From Candidatus Thorarchaeota archaeon (GTDB taxonomy: Archaea > Asgardarchaeota > Thorarchaeia > Thorarchaeales > Thorarchaeaceae), in contig JBHLRZ010000014.1 in assembly GCA_048882045.1 (NCBI GenBank), forward strand, positions 1 through 64,000: a stretch of 64,000 bases of DNA, read 5' to 3'. The position numbers and the translations under genes were made by a program. The notes below the pieces were generated by a model. It ran no database searches, was not told the DNA's origin, and saw nothing but the letters and a program-made list of their open reading frames with translations. Positions 6,271-41,865 of the stretch are shown here, piece after piece; the first letter of the stretch is position 1; every line of letters begins with the position of its first letter.

Positions 6271-6642
6271 CTATGGACAGCCATCATGGAAACAACGTTT
6301 CAACACAGCACTCATGACTGCTCCTCTTGCTACGTCCATGTCTGGTATTCCGGAGATAAACTCGCTACACACACGCATTGCAGGGAGGCCTAAGGGTGCG
6401 GGAAATCCACAGCCATCATCTACACTAGATTCCACATCAACAGTACGGATCGTCTGAGGTGGAAGACCAAAATCAGAAATGACACTGTACATGGTTTCAT
6501 ACGCAGCATCACACAGCACACATTTCTTACTGGTGTAGAGGATAATACAGGCACATCTTCCACAGTCTGTTTTCATCGACTCGAAAGCCGATGTGAATTG
6601 CACTGACTCCTGTCTAAGCGTCATCGTATCTGTCGCACCCAA
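6271..6642 (-). CDS. Cys-rich thioredoxin-fold protein
   Basis: LYTSKKCVLC CxxC, GLPAM cis-Pro region, ISGIPD; start uncertain. Confidence 0.55.
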   Translation of the reverse strand: MGATDTMTLRQESVQFTSAFESMKTDCGRCACIILYTSKKCVLCDAAYETMYSVISDFGLPPQTIRTVDVESSVDDGCGFPAPLGLPAMRVCSEFISGIPDMDVARGAVMSAVLKRCFHDGCP

Positions 6643-6862
6643 TGAGAGGATGTGAAATATTAGATATAAAGTAACTAAGCAAAGACTCCAGTAAAAAAAT
6701 GGAAGTACAAGACGTCTAGAGCCATTCTGAAGGGGGATGTTCCATCGTAGGCTAAGTATCCTGGTTTGATGCCTACTATGGTAGTCGACTCATTTTCTCT
6801 TCCGGAATTCAATCTAAACATTTGGCCATATCACTCTAATATTACTAGGGCAATATGGACAA

Positions 6863-8050
6863 CTAGCATACCAGTTCAAGTGCTGATGTGAGATCCGTGA
6901 ATAGGTCTTCAACATCCTCAATTCCTACACTCAATCGAACCGTAGATTCCGAGATATTCATCTCAGCCAGTGCTTCTGGAGTAAGTCCGTAATGAGTTGT
7001 AAGAGCAGGGATACTCGCCAAACTCTCTACCCCACCAAGTGATACCGCATTGAGGAAGATTCCAAGAGAGTCAACAAATGTCTTTGCACCTTCGAGATCA
7101 CAGTCGATCTCAACAGACATCATGCCACCAAAGCCCCTCATCTGTTTCTTAGCAACATCATGATGAGGATGACTTGAGAGGCCTGGGTAGTGGACCCTTC
7201 TGATTCGAGAGTCCTGTTCGAGCTTTTCAGCAAGGTACATTGCATTGGAGTTATGTCGCTGCATCCTTACATCCAATGTCTTTATGCCACGATCAAGTAG
7301 AAATGCTGCGAAAGGATCCATTGTTCCACCCAAGAGCTTTGTTGCACTATGGACTTTAGTCATCAGCTCCTTGGAGCCTGAAACAGTACCAGCAATAATA
7401 TCACTGTGGCCACCGAGATACTTAGTAGCACTATGCATGACAAGGTCTATACCAAGCTTGTGTGGTGATTGATTGATAGGGGAGCCAAACGTACTGTCAA
7501 TCATACTTGTGGTCCCAGTTGATCTTGCTGCATCAGCAACCTTACTGATATCAACAATCTTGAGAGTTGGGTTGGTTGGAGTTTCAAAGAAAATCAACTT
7601 GTACTTGCCTTCTGAGTCAAAGATTCGATCCACCAACTCATCAGTGTCAACATAATCGACCTCAATCCCATTATTTGGAAGAATCTCATTGAAGAAATGA
7701 ACTGTTCCCCCATAGATGGAGTCACTTGAAAGGACTTTATCACCTCCCTTAACAAGACCCATCACAGCTGACGAAATTGCAGCCATTCCTGAAGATAGAA
7801 CCAAAGTTGCCTCAGTCCCTTCCAGAGCGCTTATTTTCTCCTCGACACTCTTGGTCGTGGGATTAGTCCAACGCGTGTAAACATGTCCACCTGACTTTCC
7901 TTGGACAGCATCAAGCATATCCTGCTGATTCTCAAACACAAATGTCGAAGTCTGTGTAATTGGCACTACTGCAGGCCCCGAGGTCTGAGTGTGTGTGCCT
8001 TGTACACAGAGTGTTGGTAGAGTTCTCTCCTTTTTCATCTTAGACAACAC
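6863..8050 (-). CDS. PLP-dependent Cys/Met metabolism enzyme (cystathionine gamma-synthase/lyase, methionine gamma-lyase family)
   Basis: YTRWTNPT, SSGMAAI, ETPTNP, HSATKYLGGHSD (PLP Lys), VSLGGVESL, RLSVGIED. Confidence 0.92.
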   Translation of the reverse strand: MLSKMKKERTLPTLCVQGTHTQTSGPAVVPITQTSTFVFENQQDMLDAVQGKSGGHVYTRWTNPTTKSVEEKISALEGTEATLVLSSGMAAISSAVMGLVKGGDKVLSSDSIYGGTVHFFNEILPNNGIEVDYVDTDELVDRIFDSEGKYKLIFFETPTNPTLKIVDISKVADAARSTGTTSMIDSTFGSPINQSPHKLGIDLVMHSATKYLGGHSDIIAGTVSGSKELMTKVHSATKLLGGTMDPFAAFLLDRGIKTLDVRMQRHNSNAMYLAEKLEQDSRIRRVHYPGLSSHPHHDVAKKQMRGFGGMMSVEIDCDLEGAKTFVDSLGIFLNAVSLGGVESLASIPALTTHYGLTPEALAEMNISESTVRLSVGIEDVEDLFTDLTSALELVC

Positions 8051-36098: not shown

Positions 36099-36878
36099 TC
36101 ATATTGTAACTCGATTTCGCCACTGTTCGAAGATGGCCATATACATGCATTCCTGAGGTGGGATCCACATCTCAGAAGAATCAAAGGACTGATCCACAAA
36201 CTCGACAGGCGCATCTCTGATTAGTGCAGCTGGAATCGACTCATCTGACTCGCCCATCACAGCTGTGCATGCTGATGCAAGATTGTCAGCGATGGCTCGT
36301 CTAGTAATCCTCAGTACGTTACCAAACAGGTCTGTCCTACCTCTATCATCTGCAACCGGTCGAAAGCCAGCATTTCCAAGAGCCATACCAACATTTCCCA
36401 GTCTCAGAGGTTGAGTGCGACTGTCAATGACAAGAACTCCGATAGTCTTTCCAAGTCTGTTCTTGACCTCATTCCTAATTCTCTCCGCACTCTCTCTAGG
36501 GTTGGCTGGCAGGAGAGAGGCATACCCTGGAGGGACATTGGACTTGTCGACTCCAGCATTTGCCATCAGGGTGTTACTCTTGATTGTCAAGACAACGTGA
36601 GGAATACCTCCCAGGATTTCATCTGCTTCGTTCAATACGAGTTCTGCAACCTCAGGAATCATTTCGTATTTCCTCGCAAGATCTCGCGCTTTTTCTGAAG
36701 CGACAACATTCGAGAGCTTGACTACTTGGCCTTCAGTTGTACCCAGGGGAGTTTCAGCCACACCGAGGATGTCATTGTCCTGAATCTCGATTCCCTTATT
36801 GGTGAGACCTTCGAGAAGTACATCTAGGAGATTGTCTTCTTCAGTAATGATTCGAGTCTTGATTGGAAAAACCTGCAT
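36099..36878 (-). CDS. cofE: Coenzyme F420-0:L-glutamate ligase
   Basis: ANAGVDKSN, IDSRTQPLRLG, D.RG..DLFG..L..T..AIAD, MGES.E. Confidence 0.88.
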   Translation of the reverse strand: MQVFPIKTRIITEEDNLLDVLLEGLTNKGIEIQDNDILGVAETPLGTTEGQVVKLSNVVASEKARDLARKYEMIPEVAELVLNEADEILGGIPHVVLTIKSNTLMANAGVDKSNVPPGYASLLPANPRESAERIRNEVKNRLGKTIGVLVIDSRTQPLRLGNVGMALGNAGFRPVADDRGRTDLFGNVLRITRRAIADNLASACTAVMGESDESIPAALIRDAPVEFVDQSFDSSEMWIPPQECMYMAIFEQWRNRVTI

Positions 36879-36920: not shown

Positions 36921-38333
36921 TCATCCACCGCGAGATTTTTGGAGCTTCATCCTTTCGGACATGATGCACTTGTCACCCTTCCGACCCCCCATTGGACATC
37001 TCTTTGTGCCCATGGAGTTCATGCATCTTGCAGCAACCGCAGCTCCCATTGCTAGACCATCTTCCACGAAGAGGATATCGTGCATATCAGTCCAAAGAGA
37101 TCCATCATTAAGATGTAGATTTTCTGTGATGAGTTTGGGTTTCTGTCCAGTAATGATTGCACGCCCCGTAAGTCCCAAAGATGTATCTTTTAGAATTAGC
37201 CCCTCTGATTCGATAATCGATATCAAGCGTTGAACGATTCCAGCCTGGATCACATCGATCACTGTAAGCAGTGTATTGGTGTCACTAGCATACACAATCG
37301 ATTTCCCAAGTTTAGTAAGGTCATCTAGCCCAGATCCGTTGGTTCCTGCATCAACGCCAACTAACGTAGTTCCTGACTCTTCAGCAGCGCTTGCGTCTAC
37401 AGGAACAGTACCGAACCGTTCGACTGATTTTGAAACCTTCTCAACCCTGATGATGCTATGGGCTTTCTCTTCCCATTTTGAATCAATCTGCAATTGCTGC
37501 GACTTGTTAGATTGTGGGATGTCTAGAACACTACCAGTCTTTGCATCTATCAGTCCAGTGCCCTTTGCCAATGCATCCGGTATTGCCCCTGCAAGCCCAG
37601 CAAAGGAGCCAATTGTTCTGGCATAGGGGAACCCGTCGTCTGTCACACGTCCTGCAAGAGTGGTCCCAAAATCAAGTGTAAAAACAGGATTTCGAAAATC
37701 AATGTCAGTGCTCTTTGCTGCACCCTTCAGTCCGGCACTGACAAGCTCTCCCTCCATCTCGTTTGCAACAATCTCAGTATTTGAAGGAGGAAGTGAACTC
37801 GCTACAGCCCCATCAAAGTACACCTTCTTTAACCAAGTATAGTCACGAATATCCGGAGGAAGATTCTCTGCTGAGATTGATGCAGTCATTTTCCTTGGAG
37901 GAATTCCTGCATTAAGACATCCATCAGCCAGAGCCTGCACAATAGTTCCTACTTCACTAGGACTAGCAAAACTTGCAGTCACTCCAGTTGAGCGGACCAC
38001 AAAGTGGAGGTCACGCTCAATGTCAAGTCGCGCTTTCTTGAGAGTAGTTCTGAGAATGTCTGACACCAGTTCCGATACTGACTCTCTAGTAAGCTCCACA
38101 CCAAAGACAGTTCTTCCAAACACTTCTTCCTCTTCTTTGGGATGACGGACATCTCGAGTCATACGAACCTCTTTTTCGATTTCATAGATTTCAGCGGTTT
38201 CTAGATTTGTAGTCACAAGGACACACTTTGTGGTCGTGTTACCCAATTCAACAGATGCAACTGTGTAGAAAGGACCTTTCCGAAGTGATGATACTCCTAT
38301 AGAACGAGGTCGTACTACTCGATCTTTTTTCAC
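36921..38333 (-). CDS. Methanogenesis marker 14-like ASKHA ATPase (diol-dehydratase reactivase-like)
   Basis: VASVELGNTTTKC, FVVRSTGV, ANEMEGEL, DFRNP..LDFGTTLAG, DGLA.GAAV.ARCMNS. Confidence 0.85.
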   Translation of the reverse strand: MKKDRVVRPRSIGVSSLRKGPFYTVASVELGNTTTKCVLVTTNLETAEIYEIEKEVRMTRDVRHPKEEEEVFGRTVFGVELTRESVSELVSDILRTTLKKARLDIERDLHFVVRSTGVTASFASPSEVGTIVQALADGCLNAGIPPRKMTASISAENLPPDIRDYTWLKKVYFDGAVASSLPPSNTEIVANEMEGELVSAGLKGAAKSTDIDFRNPVFTLDFGTTLAGRVTDDGFPYARTIGSFAGLAGAIPDALAKGTGLIDAKTGSVLDIPQSNKSQQLQIDSKWEEKAHSIIRVEKVSKSVERFGTVPVDASAAEESGTTLVGVDAGTNGSGLDDLTKLGKSIVYASDTNTLLTVIDVIQAGIVQRLISIIESEGLILKDTSLGLTGRAIITGQKPKLITENLHLNDGSLWTDMHDILFVEDGLAMGAAVAARCMNSMGTKRCPMGGRKGDKCIMSERMKLQKSRGG

Positions 38334-38350
38334 AATCTGTCACTTCCATA

Positions 38351-39286
38351 TTAGACTAGTTTCTTGAACGGATGGTCATCAGAGGGCTCAATACCAAATT
38401 CGAGACTATAAGACTCTGCAGCAAACACATCACACATGGCAACAACTGGAAACACTCGTTCTGCATTAGCTATTGGGCCATAGAGCACAAAGTCAGCACC
38501 CATCATCTGTACAATAAGATTTGAAGCAACATCTGCAGTCCGATATCCTTCTGGATTCGCCTTCTTGTGTTTTCTCAACCAGGACCACGATGAGGGAGCA
38601 TTGTGTACTCCGGATCCTGTTGGAAGTCCATAGACAGTCTTTGACACAAATGTGAATGCCGCAGCTGTACCAGCACCTGCACCCATTGCAGTCACTGCAG
38701 TATCTATCAGGGGTTTGGTGATTCCAAGTTCCTTACTCAATGGTAGTAGTCCCTTGTCTAGTTCAAGTGCACCGGTGTCCAACACAGTTCTTCGCCCCCC
38801 GATAGATGGGTCTTGGGGATTGAATGCAAGGATGATTGCACATTCATGTTGGATACTCTTGAGAGCCTCAATCTCCTCCTTAGTTGCAGAAACGTTGAGA
38901 GAGTTATAGATGGCTCTGTCTAGAAGACCTATCTCCTCAGCATGAGTCAAACCAGCGATCCGAACTAGAGGTTCTGTCGAATCAATGAGGAACGGAGCAT
39001 CAGTAATGTCAGTCACGAAATCGATGTACTTCTTCAGTGCATCCTCGGTTTCCGAAAATATTTGGATTAAAGCAGGATTGCCAGTGAGTTGTGACATCTC
39101 ATCCTGTTTCTCAATCAGAGCGGTTGCTGCCTTCTTATCGAAGACTCCCTTCTTGGTGTCCGTAACGATCTTGTGCCCTCCATAGAAGATAGTACCAGCA
39201 AGAACCGTAGCAGTTTCACCCGGGTTTCCACCTATCTTCACTCCACCTACATTATGGATGACCTGTTCTTTCTCAAAGACAAACAT
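38351..39286 (-). CDS. mtrH: Methyl-H4MPT:corrinoid methyltransferase MtrH
   Basis: MF.FEKEQ...GGVKIGG.PGE..TVLAGTIFY.GH, PFLIDST, IYNS, GSGVHNAPSSW, GADFVLYGPI. Confidence 0.9.
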   Translation of the reverse strand: MFVFEKEQVIHNVGGVKIGGNPGETATVLAGTIFYGGHKIVTDTKKGVFDKKAATALIEKQDEMSQLTGNPALIQIFSETEDALKKYIDFVTDITDAPFLIDSTEPLVRIAGLTHAEEIGLLDRAIYNSLNVSATKEEIEALKSIQHECAIILAFNPQDPSIGGRRTVLDTGALELDKGLLPLSKELGITKPLIDTAVTAMGAGAGTAAAFTFVSKTVYGLPTGSGVHNAPSSWSWLRKHKKANPEGYRTADVASNLIVQMMGADFVLYGPIANAERVFPVVAMCDVFAAESYSLEFGIEPSDDHPFKKLV

Positions 39287-39290
39287 TGCA

Positions 39291-39977
39291 TCAACCCTCT
39301 CTCGCGTATAGAATGGTCCCTGTGTCTTCTTCCTGAACTTCAATAATAGTGGAAGAGGGGTTCTCTGACACTATAGCATGTTTCATCTGACTCATGATCA
39401 TTGAGGATGTGGAATCGAGAATGACACCATACTCGGGCAACACTATCACATCACCGGTAATCGATGGTGTTCTGGTTGATTTCACTGGAGCCCTGAACTC
39501 AACCCACATAGCTCCCCCTGGAAACTCACCTGGGTCTTTGGTCAATAACTCTCCTGCTTTGGATGCGATTTCGGTAGGATTGATCTTGTTGATCATATCG
39601 ATGAGTTCAATCTGCTCGCGGAATTGATCAATTCCTTCAAGGGGAACGTTCTCAATATACGGAATTGCTCCTTCAGCATCGATGATCTTTCGGGTTTCTC
39701 TGTCAACTCCGTTATGATAGAGTGCACGCAATGACCTGCCAGTAAGATGTCCAGGAACCTCTGGACCAGTGAGAATCAGAAATCGAATATTCGGATTGGA
39801 GATGACATTGATGATGACACGTTCAATTCCAATATTCTCAGTCTTGCAGGTACCGATGATTGCGCACTCAGTATCAACATCAATCTTCTTACCCAGTGTA
39901 CAAATGGCTACACATTTGGAGGGGTCTCTAACTTCGAAATCTCCTTGGACCGGAGGCCATTCGGGTTCAGGATTCAT
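39291..39977 (-). CDS. mtrA: MtrA corrinoid protein, soluble (no TM anchor), with C-terminal extension
   Basis: WPPVQGDF, GTCKTENIGIE, NPNIRF, EVPGHLTG (cobamide His ligand), GAIPYIEN. Confidence 0.9.
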   Translation of the reverse strand: MNPEPEWPPVQGDFEVRDPSKCVAICTLGKKIDVDTECAIIGTCKTENIGIERVIINVISNPNIRFLILTGPEVPGHLTGRSLRALYHNGVDRETRKIIDAEGAIPYIENVPLEGIDQFREQIELIDMINKINPTEIASKAGELLTKDPGEFPGGAMWVEFRAPVKSTRTPSITGDVIVLPEYGVILDSTSSMIMSQMKHAIVSENPSSTIIEVQEEDTGTILYAREG

Positions 39978-39992
39978 TTTATTGCATCCCTC

Positions 39993-40910
39993 CTATTCAA
40001 ACGATGGGGGTTCAAAGAGTTCTCTGTCAATGTCCAATACACTGTTTGCTTCGGCTATGGTTGCGGCTATGGCATTCGAAATCAGAGCTGCTGATGTGAA
40101 TATCTCTTTGGCATGAGATAATGAGCCAAACATTATGGCATCAGTTGCAAAGAGTTGTGCAGCCACAGTCGCTGCAACCACCGTCGAGATTCTTGTCGTG
40201 TCATCATCCAATCCGGGTTGTCGGATGAATCGCCAAGCGGAAGGTGCATTGTGAGGAGCTAGACATGTTGGAAGTCCCAATTCTGATTTCACAGCAATGG
40301 TGGTCCTATGCTCCAGTCCATAGCCAGAACCTACGGGCATCGTAGCCGGATCGACGATGGTTTTCTTTATACCCAATGACTCGGAGAATGTTAGTACATC
40401 ACGTATTGTATCCATTCTATCTGGGAGCGTAGTGGCCTTTGGTGACCACCCAAGGATGACTGCCATGTCCAATGCACTAGCTTTGAGTTTGTCCTTCTCA
40501 TCATCCTTCATTGACAGATTGATGGAGTTGAAGACCGCTCGGTCAGTGAGTCCAGTTTCTTCGCAGTATTCAATTGCACGAATGCGAGCGTTTGCATTTA
40601 TTGACTCGAACATGAAGGGTCCTTCAAGATTCTCTGCTAGCCAAGAGAGATGATTCTCCATTGCCCGAGGAGTTCTACCAAATGCTTGAATCATCAATGG
40701 GAGTCCAGTTTTGTCAGACATTAATTGTGCAGTGTCAATCCATGACTTCGCGACTTCTTTGTCGAATATACCCTCTCGAGTGTCCTCCATTATTGACTGA
40801 CCCTTGAAGAAGAGACCCCCAATCAGAACTGTGGGATTCTCACCAGGATTACCACCAATAGGAATACCTCCAAAGTCAAACACTTGTTGCTCTTTCTTGA
40901 AGACAAACAC
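39993..40910 (-). CDS. Divergent MtrH paralogue
   Basis: F.FKKEQ...GGNPGENPTVLIG, VFNS, APHNAPSAW; PFMFES in place of PFLIDS. Confidence 0.82.
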   Translation of the reverse strand: MFVFKKEQQVFDFGGIPIGGNPGENPTVLIGGLFFKGQSIMEDTREGIFDKEVAKSWIDTAQLMSDKTGLPLMIQAFGRTPRAMENHLSWLAENLEGPFMFESINANARIRAIEYCEETGLTDRAVFNSINLSMKDDEKDKLKASALDMAVILGWSPKATTLPDRMDTIRDVLTFSESLGIKKTIVDPATMPVGSGYGLEHRTTIAVKSELGLPTCLAPHNAPSAWRFIRQPGLDDDTTRISTVVAATVAAQLFATDAIMFGSLSHAKEIFTSAALISNAIAATIAEANSVLDIDRELFEPPSFE

Positions 40911-40914
40911 GATA

Positions 40915-41865
40915 TCACCTCTCAACCTTCCGTCTAGGATACAAATTAGCACGTTTGACAAGCTCAACAATACTCTCTGGCCAACCTATGCCCATCAAGT
41001 GTAGTCCATTGACGCCATCGATCTCACGTATCACCTCTATGGTTTCAAGGGCGATTTGAATACCTTCCGCTTTCATTGCCTGAATCTTGGCCTGCTCCTC
41101 TTCTTGACCTTTTGCAGAATCATCAAGTCGTCGAATGAACTCATCAGGAACCTGAATATCTGGAACATAGTCATTCATGAAGTGCGCCATCTCTGAGTCA
41201 CGAAGCGGGATTATACCCACCAAAATGTTCAGTTTGTTGTCAGTTTGTCCCATGAATCTCTGTAAGAGAACAGGATCAAAGATCGCTTGAGTCTGAAAGA
41301 ACTGTGCTCCCGCTTCGAATTTCGCTTTCATTCGACGTTGTTGATTTTCTAGTGATGCATCATTTGGATTGATGGTTGCTCCGAGATAGAACTCTGGTGT
41401 TCCCTCCAACTCATCACCCACAGAGTCAACTCCAGTGGAGAGATGTTTCGCCAGAGCAAGAGCCTCAAGAGTATCTAGATCGTTGACCATCTTTACATGA
41501 GGATGCGTTCCGAACCGAGTAGGGTCACCAGCCATGATGAGAAGATTACGCACACCAAGTGCGTATGCGCCATAGAGCTCGCTCTGAAATGCGATCTGGT
41601 TTCGGTCCCTTGTTGTCAGATGGAGGATAGGTTCAGCGCCTGCCTGAAGTACAAATGTGGAACATACACTGCTGCTCATGGTTGGAACTCCACGGGCATT
41701 GTCAGGTACATTAATGGCATCACAGAAATCACGTATCATTTCAACACGATTTATTACTATTGATGAATCCGCCCCATGAGGTGCTCCAATCTCTCCCGTA
41801 ACTACGAAATCACCTCTATCTAGTAATTGCTTGAGTCGTGTTTCGAGCAGTTTGCAGACCTCCAC
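40915..41865 (-). CDS. metF: Methylenetetrahydrofolate reductase (MetF family); start at GTG 41865 or CTG 41850
   Basis: FVVTGE, DAINVPDN, PILHLTTRDRN, GDP, K.EAGAQFFQTQ, GIIP, GLHLM. Confidence 0.88.
   Translation of the reverse strand: MEVCKLLETRLKQLLDRGDFVVTGEIGAPHGADSSIVINRVEMIRDFCDAINVPDNARGVPTMSSSVCSTFVLQAGAEPILHLTTRDRNQIAFQSELYGAYALGVRNLLIMAGDPTRFGTHPHVKMVNDLDTLEALALAKHLSTGVDSVGDELEGTPEFYLGATINPNDASLENQQRRMKAKFEAGAQFFQTQAIFDPVLLQRFMGQTDNKLNILVGIIPLRDSEMAHFMNDYVPDIQVPDEFIRRLDDSAKGQEEEQAKIQAMKAEGIQIALETIEVIREIDGVNGLHLMGIGWPESIVELVKRANLYPRRKVER

What the first reader, a model, noticed from the sequence alone, without database searches (positions are those of the whole stretch)
39291..39470. 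MtrA C-terminus looks like a grafted MtrB N-terminal segment in place of the membrane anchor
Seen: after the corrinoid domain comes VIVLPEYGVILDSTSSMI...EEDTGTILY, with no TM helix. From memory this resembles the soluble N-terminus of methanogen MtrB (V.IAPE..LVMD..SG.V), part of the stalk where MtrH docks. Inference: an MtrA::MtrB-N fusion that keeps the MtrH docking site after loss of the membrane subunits, possibly with two sites for the two MtrH paralogues.
Basis: inference. Interest (0 to 1): 0.72.

Follow-up and report, generated by a model that had tools for sequence, protein, structure and literature searches.

The report
MtrB-like docking arm on MtrA
In this Thorarchaeota genome the vitamin-B12 methyl-carrier MtrA has lost its membrane anchor and carries instead a conserved tail whose first half matches the arm that methanogens' MtrB uses to hold the methyltransferase MtrH, so a membrane-free MtrA/MtrH enzyme probably keeps itself together with a borrowed piece of the old membrane complex.

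Summary
The gene at 39291-39977 (-) encodes a 228-aa MtrA: a cobamide domain (residues 2-162), a flexible linker, then a 55-aa beta-rich tail with no transmembrane helix.

**Distribution.** The tail is conserved in 70 of 76 sampled genomes of the same family. It also occurs in Ca. Sifarchaeum, and in 0 of 224 other Asgard genomes sampled.

**Resemblance to MtrB.** The recalled similarity to the MtrB N-terminus is real for residues 172-198.
- Profile-profile P is 2e-6 to 3e-5, against 0 of 150 shuffles and 11 real-profile controls at P >= 0.012.
- MtrB sequences are the top non-self hits of the tail HMM among 39,000 decoy ORFs.
- The Sifarchaeum tail alone hits MtrB at 47-54% identity over 24-30 residues.
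- The invariant Glu182 aligns with MtrB Glu9, which salt-bridges MtrH Arg211 in the M. mazei cryo-EM structure. That Arg is invariant in the upstream paralogue MtrH' and absent from the downstream MtrH.

**Limits.**
- Docking is inferred. An AlphaFold2 single-chain read-through model was inconclusive.
- The "two sites" idea is not supported: there is no internal repeat, and the second half does not match MtrB, MtrF or MtrG.
- The direction of evolution (graft or ancestral) is open.

I found no published description. I class it as a new variant of a known kind.

The parts
39291..39977 (-). mtrA: 228-aa soluble MtrA, stop TGA at 39291-39293
   Evidence: ORF. PF04208 at 195 bits over residues 2-162. 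51-53% identical to the solved MtrA chains 8q3v_A and 5laa. Model against 5laa_B: Z 26.1, rmsd 1.0 over 150 residues.
39492..39974 (-). Cobamide-binding domain, residues 2-162, including the His ligand motif with invariant H77
   Evidence: AF2 pLDDT is mostly above 90.
39459..39491 (-). Flexible linker, residues 163-173
   Evidence: The sequence is variable. AF2 pLDDT is below 50 for residues 164-173.
39384..39464 (-). MtrB-N-arm-like segment, residues 172-198, with the invariant Pro181-Glu182
   Evidence: hhalign against the MtrB profile: P 2.6e-5 for the whole tail and 1.9e-6 for the first half. The tool's own hhalign gave P 9.5e-6. Shuffles reached at most 17.8 against a real score of 30.3. 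E182 aligns with MtrB Glu9. Predicted strands are 177-180, 185-187 and 194-196.
39294..39383 (-). Second half of the tail, residues 199-228: three further predicted beta strands with conserved P207, E213, G220, T221, L223 and E227. No known relative.
   Evidence: Conservation. Strands 200-204, 210-217 and 220-227 at pLDDT 68-81. No similarity to MtrB, MtrF, MtrG or the first half of the tail.
38351..39286 (-). mtrH: canonical-type MtrH of 311 aa. The likely start is ATG 39286, 4 nt after the mtrA stop.
   Evidence: PF02007 at 390 bits. 52% identical to Methanobacteriaceae MtrH. The start was inferred from orthologues. It has Ala210 where M. mazei MtrH has Arg211, and Glu5 where M. mazei has Asp5.
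39993..40910 (-). mtrH': divergent MtrH paralogue of 305 aa. The likely start is GTG 40910. It lies in the same frame as mtrA, 15 nt upstream of it.
   Evidence: PF02007 at 240 bits. Read-through translation. Arg202 aligns with M. mazei MtrH Arg211 and is invariant in 53 of 53 Asgard MtrH' sequences.
40305..40307 (-). Codon of MtrH' Arg202, the candidate partner of tail Glu182
   Evidence: The pairing itself is an inference.
36921..38333 (-). Methanogenesis marker 14 (DUF2114) gene downstream of mtrH. Same operon context.
   Evidence: PF09887 at 640 bits and TIGR03285. The same gene follows mtrH in Methanobacteriaceae loci.
40915..41865 (-). MTHFR-like (MetF) gene, first gene of the co-oriented cluster
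   Evidence: PF02219 at 116 bits.

Best explanation
The C-terminal tail of this Thorarchaeal MtrA is a tether that acts in cis. Residues 172-198 are a homologue of the N-terminal arm of methanogen MtrB. In the membrane-bound Mtr complex that arm forms a small three-stranded beta sheet and docks the MtrH dimer at its dimer interface. Here the membrane subunits, MtrB included, are gone and the arm sits on MtrA itself, behind a disordered linker of about 10 residues. Three extra strands (199-228) probably complete the small sheet, a job that the N-termini of MtrF and MtrG do in methanogens. The arm most likely binds a dimer of MtrH-family proteins encoded on either side of mtrA. Tail Glu182 would pair with the invariant Arg202 of MtrH', as MtrB Glu9 pairs with MtrH Arg211. 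That would keep the cobamide domain on a short leash, able to swing between the two TIM-barrel active sites of a soluble MtrH'/MtrA/MtrH methyltransferase. Shown here: the tail and its conservation, the lack of an anchor, the specific sequence similarity to the MtrB arm, the failure to find MtrB, D, E or G in the genome, and the residue pattern in the two paralogues. Inferred: physical docking, an H'/H heterodimer, the role of the second half, and whether the arm was moved from MtrB or is ancestral.
For: 1) Profile-profile similarity restricted to the MtrB N-arm: hhalign P 2.6e-5 (score 30.3, 27 columns), P 1.9e-6 for the first half alone, and P 9.5e-6 over 37 columns with the tool's own hhalign. 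2) Nulls: 150 column shuffles had mean 10.1, sd 2.1 and max 17.8, and the reversed profile scored 9.9. Eleven real-profile controls (MtrF, MtrG, MtrA linker plus anchor, MtrA core, three MtrH groups) gave P 0.012-0.39. 3) Database-style test: the tail HMM was run against 38,951 six-frame ORFs of the own genome plus 46 MtrB sequences. After the self hit, 22 of the next 24 hits are MtrB. 4) Bridging sequence: the tail of the Ca. Sifarchaeum MtrA (same H'-A-H gene order), as a single sequence, hits MtrB at BLASTP E 0.002 and phmmer E 4.5e-4 in that database. Identity is 47-54% over 24-30 residues, and all top 30 hits are MtrB. 5) The aligned residues are the functional ones. M. mazei MtrB residues 1-23 form the sheet that docks MtrH, with Glu9-Arg211 and Arg5-Asp5 salt bridges (PMC12774963). 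Glu9 is the Glu of the Pro-Glu motif and aligns with the invariant Glu182. 6) The Arg211 column is Arg in 53/53 Asgard MtrH' and 13/13 Methanobacteriaceae MtrH, but never Arg in 62 Asgard MtrH. 7) AF2 of MtrA alone predicts a disordered linker, then six strands. The first three fall where the MtrB sheet aligns. 8) MtrB, MtrD, MtrE and MtrG gave no match in the 93%-complete genome. 9) The tail is family-wide: 70 of 76 genomes.
Against: No direct evidence of binding. In an AF2 single-chain read-through model of H'-A-H (locus L052, 34 paired rows), the tail had pLDDT 27-41 and was not confidently docked. That set-up is shallow and geometrically forced, and no coordinates or PAE were available. 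The reverse search failed: an MtrB N-arm HMM run against the genome's ORFs does not pick out the tail. HMMER also finds no MtrB chain in the PDB from the tail, and Pfam MtrB does not match. The window's own sequence therefore supports the link only at profile level. The MtrB profile came from Methanobacteriota only (Neff about 3). The residue aligned to MtrB Arg5 is hydrophobic in Thorarchaeota, so one of the two salt bridges is not kept in the same form. Conservation of Arg in MtrH' could have another structural reason.
Confidence: 0.62

Rival explanations
1. The tail is a small beta domain that resembles the MtrB arm by convergence or chance. It serves another purpose, for example MtrA self-association, or binding of the neighbouring marker-14 ATPase (a candidate cobamide activase) or another partner.
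For: The similarity spans only 27-37 columns and is invisible to profile-versus-sequence searches for the window's own protein. The tail was not docked on MtrH/H' in the read-through model. The second half has no relative at all. AF2 gives the isolated tail moderate confidence as a fold of its own.
Against: The match is specific to MtrB among all the controls. It is in register with the known interface residue Glu9. The independent Sifarchaeum sequence strengthens it. MtrB is a subunit of the very complex that MtrA and MtrH come from, so chance convergence on exactly this partner's docking arm is unlikely.
Confidence: 0.22
2. One reading: the tail carries two MtrH docking sites, one for each MtrH paralogue.
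For: Two MtrH paralogues flank mtrA. The tail is about twice as long as the MtrB arm and has six predicted strands.
Against: hhalign of the first half against the second half gave P 0.13 with one aligned column. The second half against MtrB gave P 0.22. In M. mazei a single MtrB arm binds one MtrH dimer at its interface (PMC12774963), so one arm is enough for two subunits.
Confidence: 0.07
3. The tail is a decaying remnant of the MtrA linker and anchor, with no function.
For: It occupies the place of the linker and anchor.
Against: There is no similarity to the methanogen MtrA linker plus anchor (P 0.27). Length and motifs are strongly conserved down to 50% overall identity and across two Asgard classes.
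Confidence: 0.03

Closest known systems
N-terminal arm of MtrB (Pfam PF05440) in the Mtr(ABCDEFGH) complex; M. mazei cryo-EM 9QTP/9QTQ/9QTS (PMC12774963); AlphaFold MtrB-H2 models in PMC10998594
   Same: A motif of about 27-37 residues around an invariant Pro-Glu followed by a conserved Asp and a Ser/Thr-Gly/Ser turn. It is predicted to be three short strands. The Glu aligns with the one that salt-bridges MtrH Arg211. Gene partners are the same (MtrA, MtrH).
   Different: It sits at the C-terminus of MtrA, not at the N-terminus of a separate membrane protein. The MtrB stalk helix and TM helix are missing. Pfam MtrB does not match. The basic residue equivalent to MtrB Arg5 is missing. Thirty further residues of unknown origin follow.
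Membrane-anchored MtrA of methanogens (TIGR01111; 8Q3V chain A, 9QTQ chain A)
   Same: The cobamide domain is 51% identical with the His ligand motif conserved. The fold is confirmed against 5LAA (Z 26.1, rmsd 1.0 over 150 residues). A flexible linker follows the domain.
   Different: There is no Glu/Gly-rich linker and no C-terminal stalk or TM helix. The score is below the equivalog cut-off.
Soluble MtrA homologues: M. fervidus homologue (5LAA), roughly 190-aa second copies in Methanobacteria, MtxA-type NF010654
   Same: They are MtrA-type cobamide proteins without an anchor.
   Different: The Methanobacteria copies end in short Lys/Glu-rich tails without the motif and are not next to mtrH. 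The window protein is below the NF010654 cut-off (168 vs 279 bits).
Natural MtrA-MtrH fusion proteins of Atabeyarchaeia/Freyarchaeia and others (PMC11291895; P0134, 446 aa)
   Same: They are another membrane-free way to keep MtrA next to an MtrH barrel.
   Different: The link is covalent through a charged linker, with no MtrB-like motif.

Membership tests
MtrA family (PF04208) | MtrA-type cobamide-binding domain | tested here: met
   195 bits against a 25-bit cut-off, residues 2-162. Model against 5laa_B: Z 26.1, rmsd 1.0, 150 residues aligned.
MtrA family (PF04208) | Histidine lower ligand of the cobamide (His84 in M. marburgensis) | tested here: met
   H77 aligns with the His of the solved chains and is invariant in 133 sequences.
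Membrane-anchored MtrA equivalog (TIGR01111) | C-terminal stalk/transmembrane helix and a full-length match above the cut-off | tested here: not met
   189 bits against a 249-bit cut-off, and the match ends at residue 162. Maximum hydropathy window 1.27 against 2.1-2.2. No similarity to the linker plus anchor (P 0.27).
MtrB (PF05440) | Match to the family profile | tested here: not met
   No Pfam hit for the tail at E <= 10. The MtrB HMM does not retrieve the tail from the genome's ORFs.
MtrB (PF05440) | N-terminal MtrH-docking arm (three strands, Pro-Glu motif) | tested here: met
   Profile-profile P 1.9e-6 to 2.6e-5, in register with Glu9. Sifarchaeum bridge sequence. This concerns sequence only; binding was not tested.
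MtrB (PF05440) | Cytoplasmic stalk helix plus transmembrane helix | tested here: not met
   The alignment stops after the arm. The second half of the tail against MtrB gives P 0.22. No hydrophobic helix is present.
MtrB (PF05440) | Physical binding to the MtrH dimer interface | tested here: inconclusive
   In the AF2 read-through H'-A-H chain the tail had pLDDT 27-41. No multimer prediction and no coordinates were available.
MtxA-type methyltransferase (NF010654) | Score above the curated cut-off | tested here: not met
   167.6 bits against 279.

The most novel reading that the evidence does not exclude
The tail is a molecular fossil of MtrB. On this reading, Thorarchaeia and Sifarchaeia descend from an ancestor with a complete membrane-bound Mtr complex. 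When the membrane subunits were lost, the MtrH-docking arm of MtrB was transplanted onto MtrA. The result is a self-contained soluble H'/A/H methyltransferase in which one arm addresses an asymmetric heterodimer, with the Arg kept only in H' and the acidic residue 5 kept only in H.
Probability: 0.35. Interest if true: 0.8.

Novelty: new variant of a known kind. Interest (0 to 1): 0.62.

Why it matters
MtrA and MtrH without the membrane subunits are widespread outside methanogens, and their role is openly described as unclear (PMC9635834, PMC11291895).

A docking arm in cis gives a concrete, testable picture of how such a module holds together, and of which of the two MtrH paralogues it addresses.

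A piece of MtrB embedded in an Asgard MtrA would also be independent sequence evidence on a debated question: whether these modules are remnants of a full Mtr complex, that is, of ancestral methanogenesis in the lineage leading to Asgard archaea. So far that question rests on weakly supported single-gene trees.

I found no mention of this tail or of an MtrB-like segment in the papers I could search. That is not proof that it is unpublished.

Tried and rejected
- **Pfam on the tail alone** (E <= 10): nothing.
- **HMMER of the tail, or of the full-length profile, against PDB sequences:** no MtrB chain.
- **MtrB N-arm and full MtrB HMMs against all six-frame ORFs of the genome:** the tail is not among the top hits. 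The link needs a profile on the Asgard side.
- **Tail against MtrF, MtrG and the MtrA linker/anchor:** no similarity.
- **Internal repeat in the tail:** none.
- **Tail profile against 1.84 billion representatives:** only 10 hits, which are Thorarchaeota fragments plus the Sifarchaeum protein. MtrB-level scores cannot be significant at that database size.
- **Sifarchaeum tail against 5.8 billion proteins:** only itself.
- **NF010654 (MtxA-type) in 61 Methanobacteriota genomes:** no true member. Their roughly 190-aa soluble MtrA copies lack the motif.
- **Widening the MtrB profile beyond Methanobacteriota** with the search for related loci: it returned Methanobacteria again.
- **AF2 of a natural in-frame read-through H'-A-H chain** (L052, NCBI table 6): tail pLDDT below 50, inconclusive.
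- **VIA-align wide search with the MtrA model:** only the cobamide domain is matched, and the tail was not tested by it.
- **A mixed alignment of single and fused rows** misaligned in MAFFT and was dropped.

Full report
**What is there**

On the minus strand the window carries a tight, co-oriented cluster:
- an MTHFR-like gene (40915-41865);
- a divergent MtrH paralogue, here called MtrH' (39993-40910);
- MtrA (39291-39977);
- a canonical-type MtrH (38351-39286);
- methanogenesis marker 14 / DUF2114 (36921-38333);
- a CofE-like ligase (36099-36878).

Two start codons listed mechanically are probably wrong. By comparison with orthologues, MtrH starts at ATG 39286, 4 nt after the mtrA stop. MtrH' starts at GTG 40910, 4 nt after the MTHFR stop.

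The best homologues are named Candidatus Thorarchaeota.

The finding's coordinates are residues 170-228 of MtrA plus the stop codon.

**The observation**

Pfam MtrA covers residues 2-162 at 195 bits. The solved MtrA chains (8q3v_A, 5laa, 5l8x, 9qtq_A) also align only up to about residue 160.

The membrane-anchored MtrA equivalog TIGR01111 stays below its cut-off.

The tail contains no transmembrane helix. Its best 19-residue hydropathy window scores 1.27, against 2.1-2.2 for Methanobacteriaceae MtrA anchors.

The tail is strongly conserved:
- All 120 best database homologues cover 100% of the query, and nearly all are 228 aa long.
- In alignments of 23, 29 and 133 sequences, Pro181 and Glu182 are invariant. 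Leu180, Ser192, Pro207, Glu213, Gly220, Thr221, Leu223 and Glu227 are invariant or nearly so.
- A profile of the tail finds it in 70 of 76 sampled genomes of the window's own family. It also finds it in the single sampled genome of one other family, and in none of 224 other Asgard genomes sampled.
- That other lineage is Candidatus Sifarchaeum subterraneum, which has the same H'-A-H gene order.

**Is the tail like the MtrB N-terminus?**

I took real MtrB sequences from mtr operons of Methanobacteriota. Loci L068-L128 gave 46 distinct sequences.

Profile-profile results:
- The Thorarchaeal tail (169 sequences) against MtrB gives Prob 74.9%, P 2.6e-5, score 30.3. It aligns window residues 172-198 with MtrB residues 3-29.
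- The first half of the tail alone gives Prob 89.6%, P 1.9e-6.
- The tool's own hhalign on independently built alignments (A2 against A5) gives Prob 82.7%, P 9.5e-6 over 37 columns.

Controls:
- 150 column shuffles of the tail have mean 10.1, sd 2.1 and maximum 17.8. The reversed profile scores 9.9.
- The tail against MtrF, MtrG and the methanogen MtrA linker plus anchor gives P 0.39, 0.33 and 0.27.
- Eight further comparisons of the tail or of MtrB with real profiles (MtrA core, three MtrH groups) give P 0.012-0.33.

In a database-style test, the tail HMM was run against 38,951 six-frame ORFs of the window's own genome plus the 46 MtrB sequences. After the self hit, 22 of the next 24 hits are MtrB, with a best E of 0.012. 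The MtrB sequences are related to each other, so this counts as roughly one family beating about 39,000 decoys. That agrees with the hhalign P-value.

The Sifarchaeum tail is much closer to MtrB. As a single sequence in the same database it hits MtrB at BLASTP E 0.002 (47-54% identity over 24-30 residues) and phmmer E 4.5e-4. All top 30 hits are MtrB and none are decoys. Some divergent Thorarchaeota tails are also more MtrB-like than the window's.

The reverse direction fails. MtrB HMMs do not pick the window's tail out of the genome. Pfam and PDB sequence searches are also blind to it. The similarity of the window's own protein therefore rests on profiles and on the bridging sequences.

**Why this segment matters**

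In the M. marburgensis cryo-EM structure the first 30 residues of MtrB are disordered. AlphaFold models placed them on MtrH (PMC10998594).

In the M. mazei structure with MtrH bound (PMC12774963):
- MtrB residues 1-23 form a three-stranded sheet that docks the MtrH homodimer at its dimerisation interface.
- The contacts are mainly small hydrophobic residues, plus the salt bridges Arg5(B)-Asp5(H) and Glu9(B)-Arg211(H).

The PDB sequence of M. mazei MtrB shows that Glu9 is the Glu of the Pro-Glu motif. In my alignments it corresponds to the invariant Glu182 of the tail.

I then looked at the partner residues:

| Column (M. mazei MtrH numbering) | Asgard MtrH' | Methanobacteriaceae MtrH | Asgard MtrH (downstream gene) |
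|---|---|---|---|
| Arg211 | Arg in 53 of 53 (window Arg202) | Arg in 13 of 13 | never Arg in 62 (Ala, Ser, Gly, Leu; window Ala210) |
| Asp5 | Lys in 53 of 53 | Asp in 13 of 13 | Glu or Asp in 54 of 62 |

So the two interface residues known from methanogens are split between the two Asgard paralogues. This fits one arm addressing an H'/H heterodimer. The paper does not say which protomer supplies which residue, so this remains a hypothesis.

The residue aligned to MtrB Arg5 is hydrophobic in Thorarchaeota.

**Structure predictions**

*MtrA alone.* With 133 sequences the prediction has mean pLDDT 86:
- The core scores above 90.
- Residues 164-173 score below 50.
- The tail scores 62-81 and forms six strands: 177-180, 185-187, 194-196, 200-204, 210-217 and 220-227.
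- The first three strands fall exactly where the MtrB sheet aligns.
- The core matches 5laa_B at Z 26.1.

However, in locus L052 (a Thorarchaeote) H', A and H happen to lie in one reading frame. NCBI table 6 therefore reads them as one 850-residue chain. I supplied 34 rows of such natural read-through H'-A or A-H chains. The model folded the three domains (pTM 0.58) but left the tail at pLDDT 27-41. The alignment is shallow, the joints are forced to be short, and neither coordinates nor PAE were returned. I treat this as inconclusive, and as the main gap in the case.

**What the tail is not**

- It does not contain two copies of the motif. First half against second half gives P 0.13, and second half against MtrB gives P 0.22.
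- The second half (199-228) has no detectable relative. In methanogens the MtrB sheet is extended by the N-termini of MtrF and MtrG (PMC12774963). My guess is that these extra strands complete the sheet in their absence. This is inference only.

**Context**

- The genome (93% complete, 2.8% contamination) gave no match to MtrB, MtrD, MtrE or MtrG. It has one MtrA and three MtrH-family genes. MtrC and MtrF were not searched for.
- The third MtrH-family gene is an orphan on another contig. It is 24-33% identical to the other two and does not have the Arg.
- Other Asgard lineages have covalent MtrA-MtrH fusions (PMC11291895). One such protein, P0134, has a charged linker and no MtrB-like motif.
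- The soluble second MtrA copies of Methanobacteria have short Lys/Glu-rich tails without the motif.

**Verdict**

- The first half of the tail is, with about 80% confidence, homologous to the MtrH-docking arm of MtrB.
- That it docks MtrH-family proteins in this soluble module is the most likely function (about 60%) but is untested.
- The direction of the transfer is open: a graft from MtrB after loss of the membrane part, or an older arrangement.
- I found no description of this in the searchable literature.
- It is a new variant of a known kind of interaction module.

Earlier scan notes on the same stretch and cluster agree with this reading but are not independent evidence.

Noticed in passing
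window 39978-39995 and 39287-39293: mtrH' and mtrA lie in the same reading frame, separated by a TAG stop and 15 nt. mtrA and mtrH are 4 nt apart in different frames. In other Thorarchaeota loci either junction can be in frame, and in L052 both are, so stop read-through would give a single H'-A-H chain.
   Followed up: partly
window 40910 and 39286: The mechanical ORF starts (TTG 40970 for mtrH', TTG 39343 for mtrH) overlap the upstream genes. Orthologues indicate GTG 40910 and ATG 39286, each 4 nt after the preceding stop.
   Followed up: partly
G000:C5:65933-66763 (locus L146:1444-2358, minus strand): A third MtrH-family gene (PF02007, 225 bits), only 24-33% identical to the two in the window. 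No corrinoid-protein gene sits next to it; the neighbours are a DNA-alkylation-repair-like protein and an M24 peptidase.
   Followed up: partly
L068, L071, L080 (Methanobacteriaceae mtr operons), about 6330-7890: A marker-14 (DUF2114-like) gene follows mtrH directly in several Methanobacteriaceae mtr operons. The MtrA-MtrH-marker-14 order of the window is therefore shared with methanogens.
   Followed up: no
L113-L121 (Methanobacteriota genomes G029, G034, G039, G040, G064, G078, G086, G108, G115): A divergent MtrB group has Asp-Asp or Asp-Glu in place of the Pro-Glu of the docking arm and lacks the first few residues of the Pfam profile. I did not check whether their MtrH keeps the Arg211 partner.
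   Followed up: no
L132, L134, L135, L141, L142: Methanobacteria carry second, anchor-less MtrA homologues of about 185-200 aa with Lys/Glu-rich C-termini. They are not next to mtrH.
   Followed up: partly
P0135 (418 aa, metagenome): An MtrA-domain protein fused to an N-terminal PF14251 domain, with a long Arg/Pro-rich C-terminus. Its origin is unknown.
   Followed up: no
PDB 9s9i_A against the MtrB profile: The helical middle of the MtrB profile weakly matches the archaeal cell-division protein CdvA (E 0.0046). This is probably coiled-coil composition.
   Followed up: no
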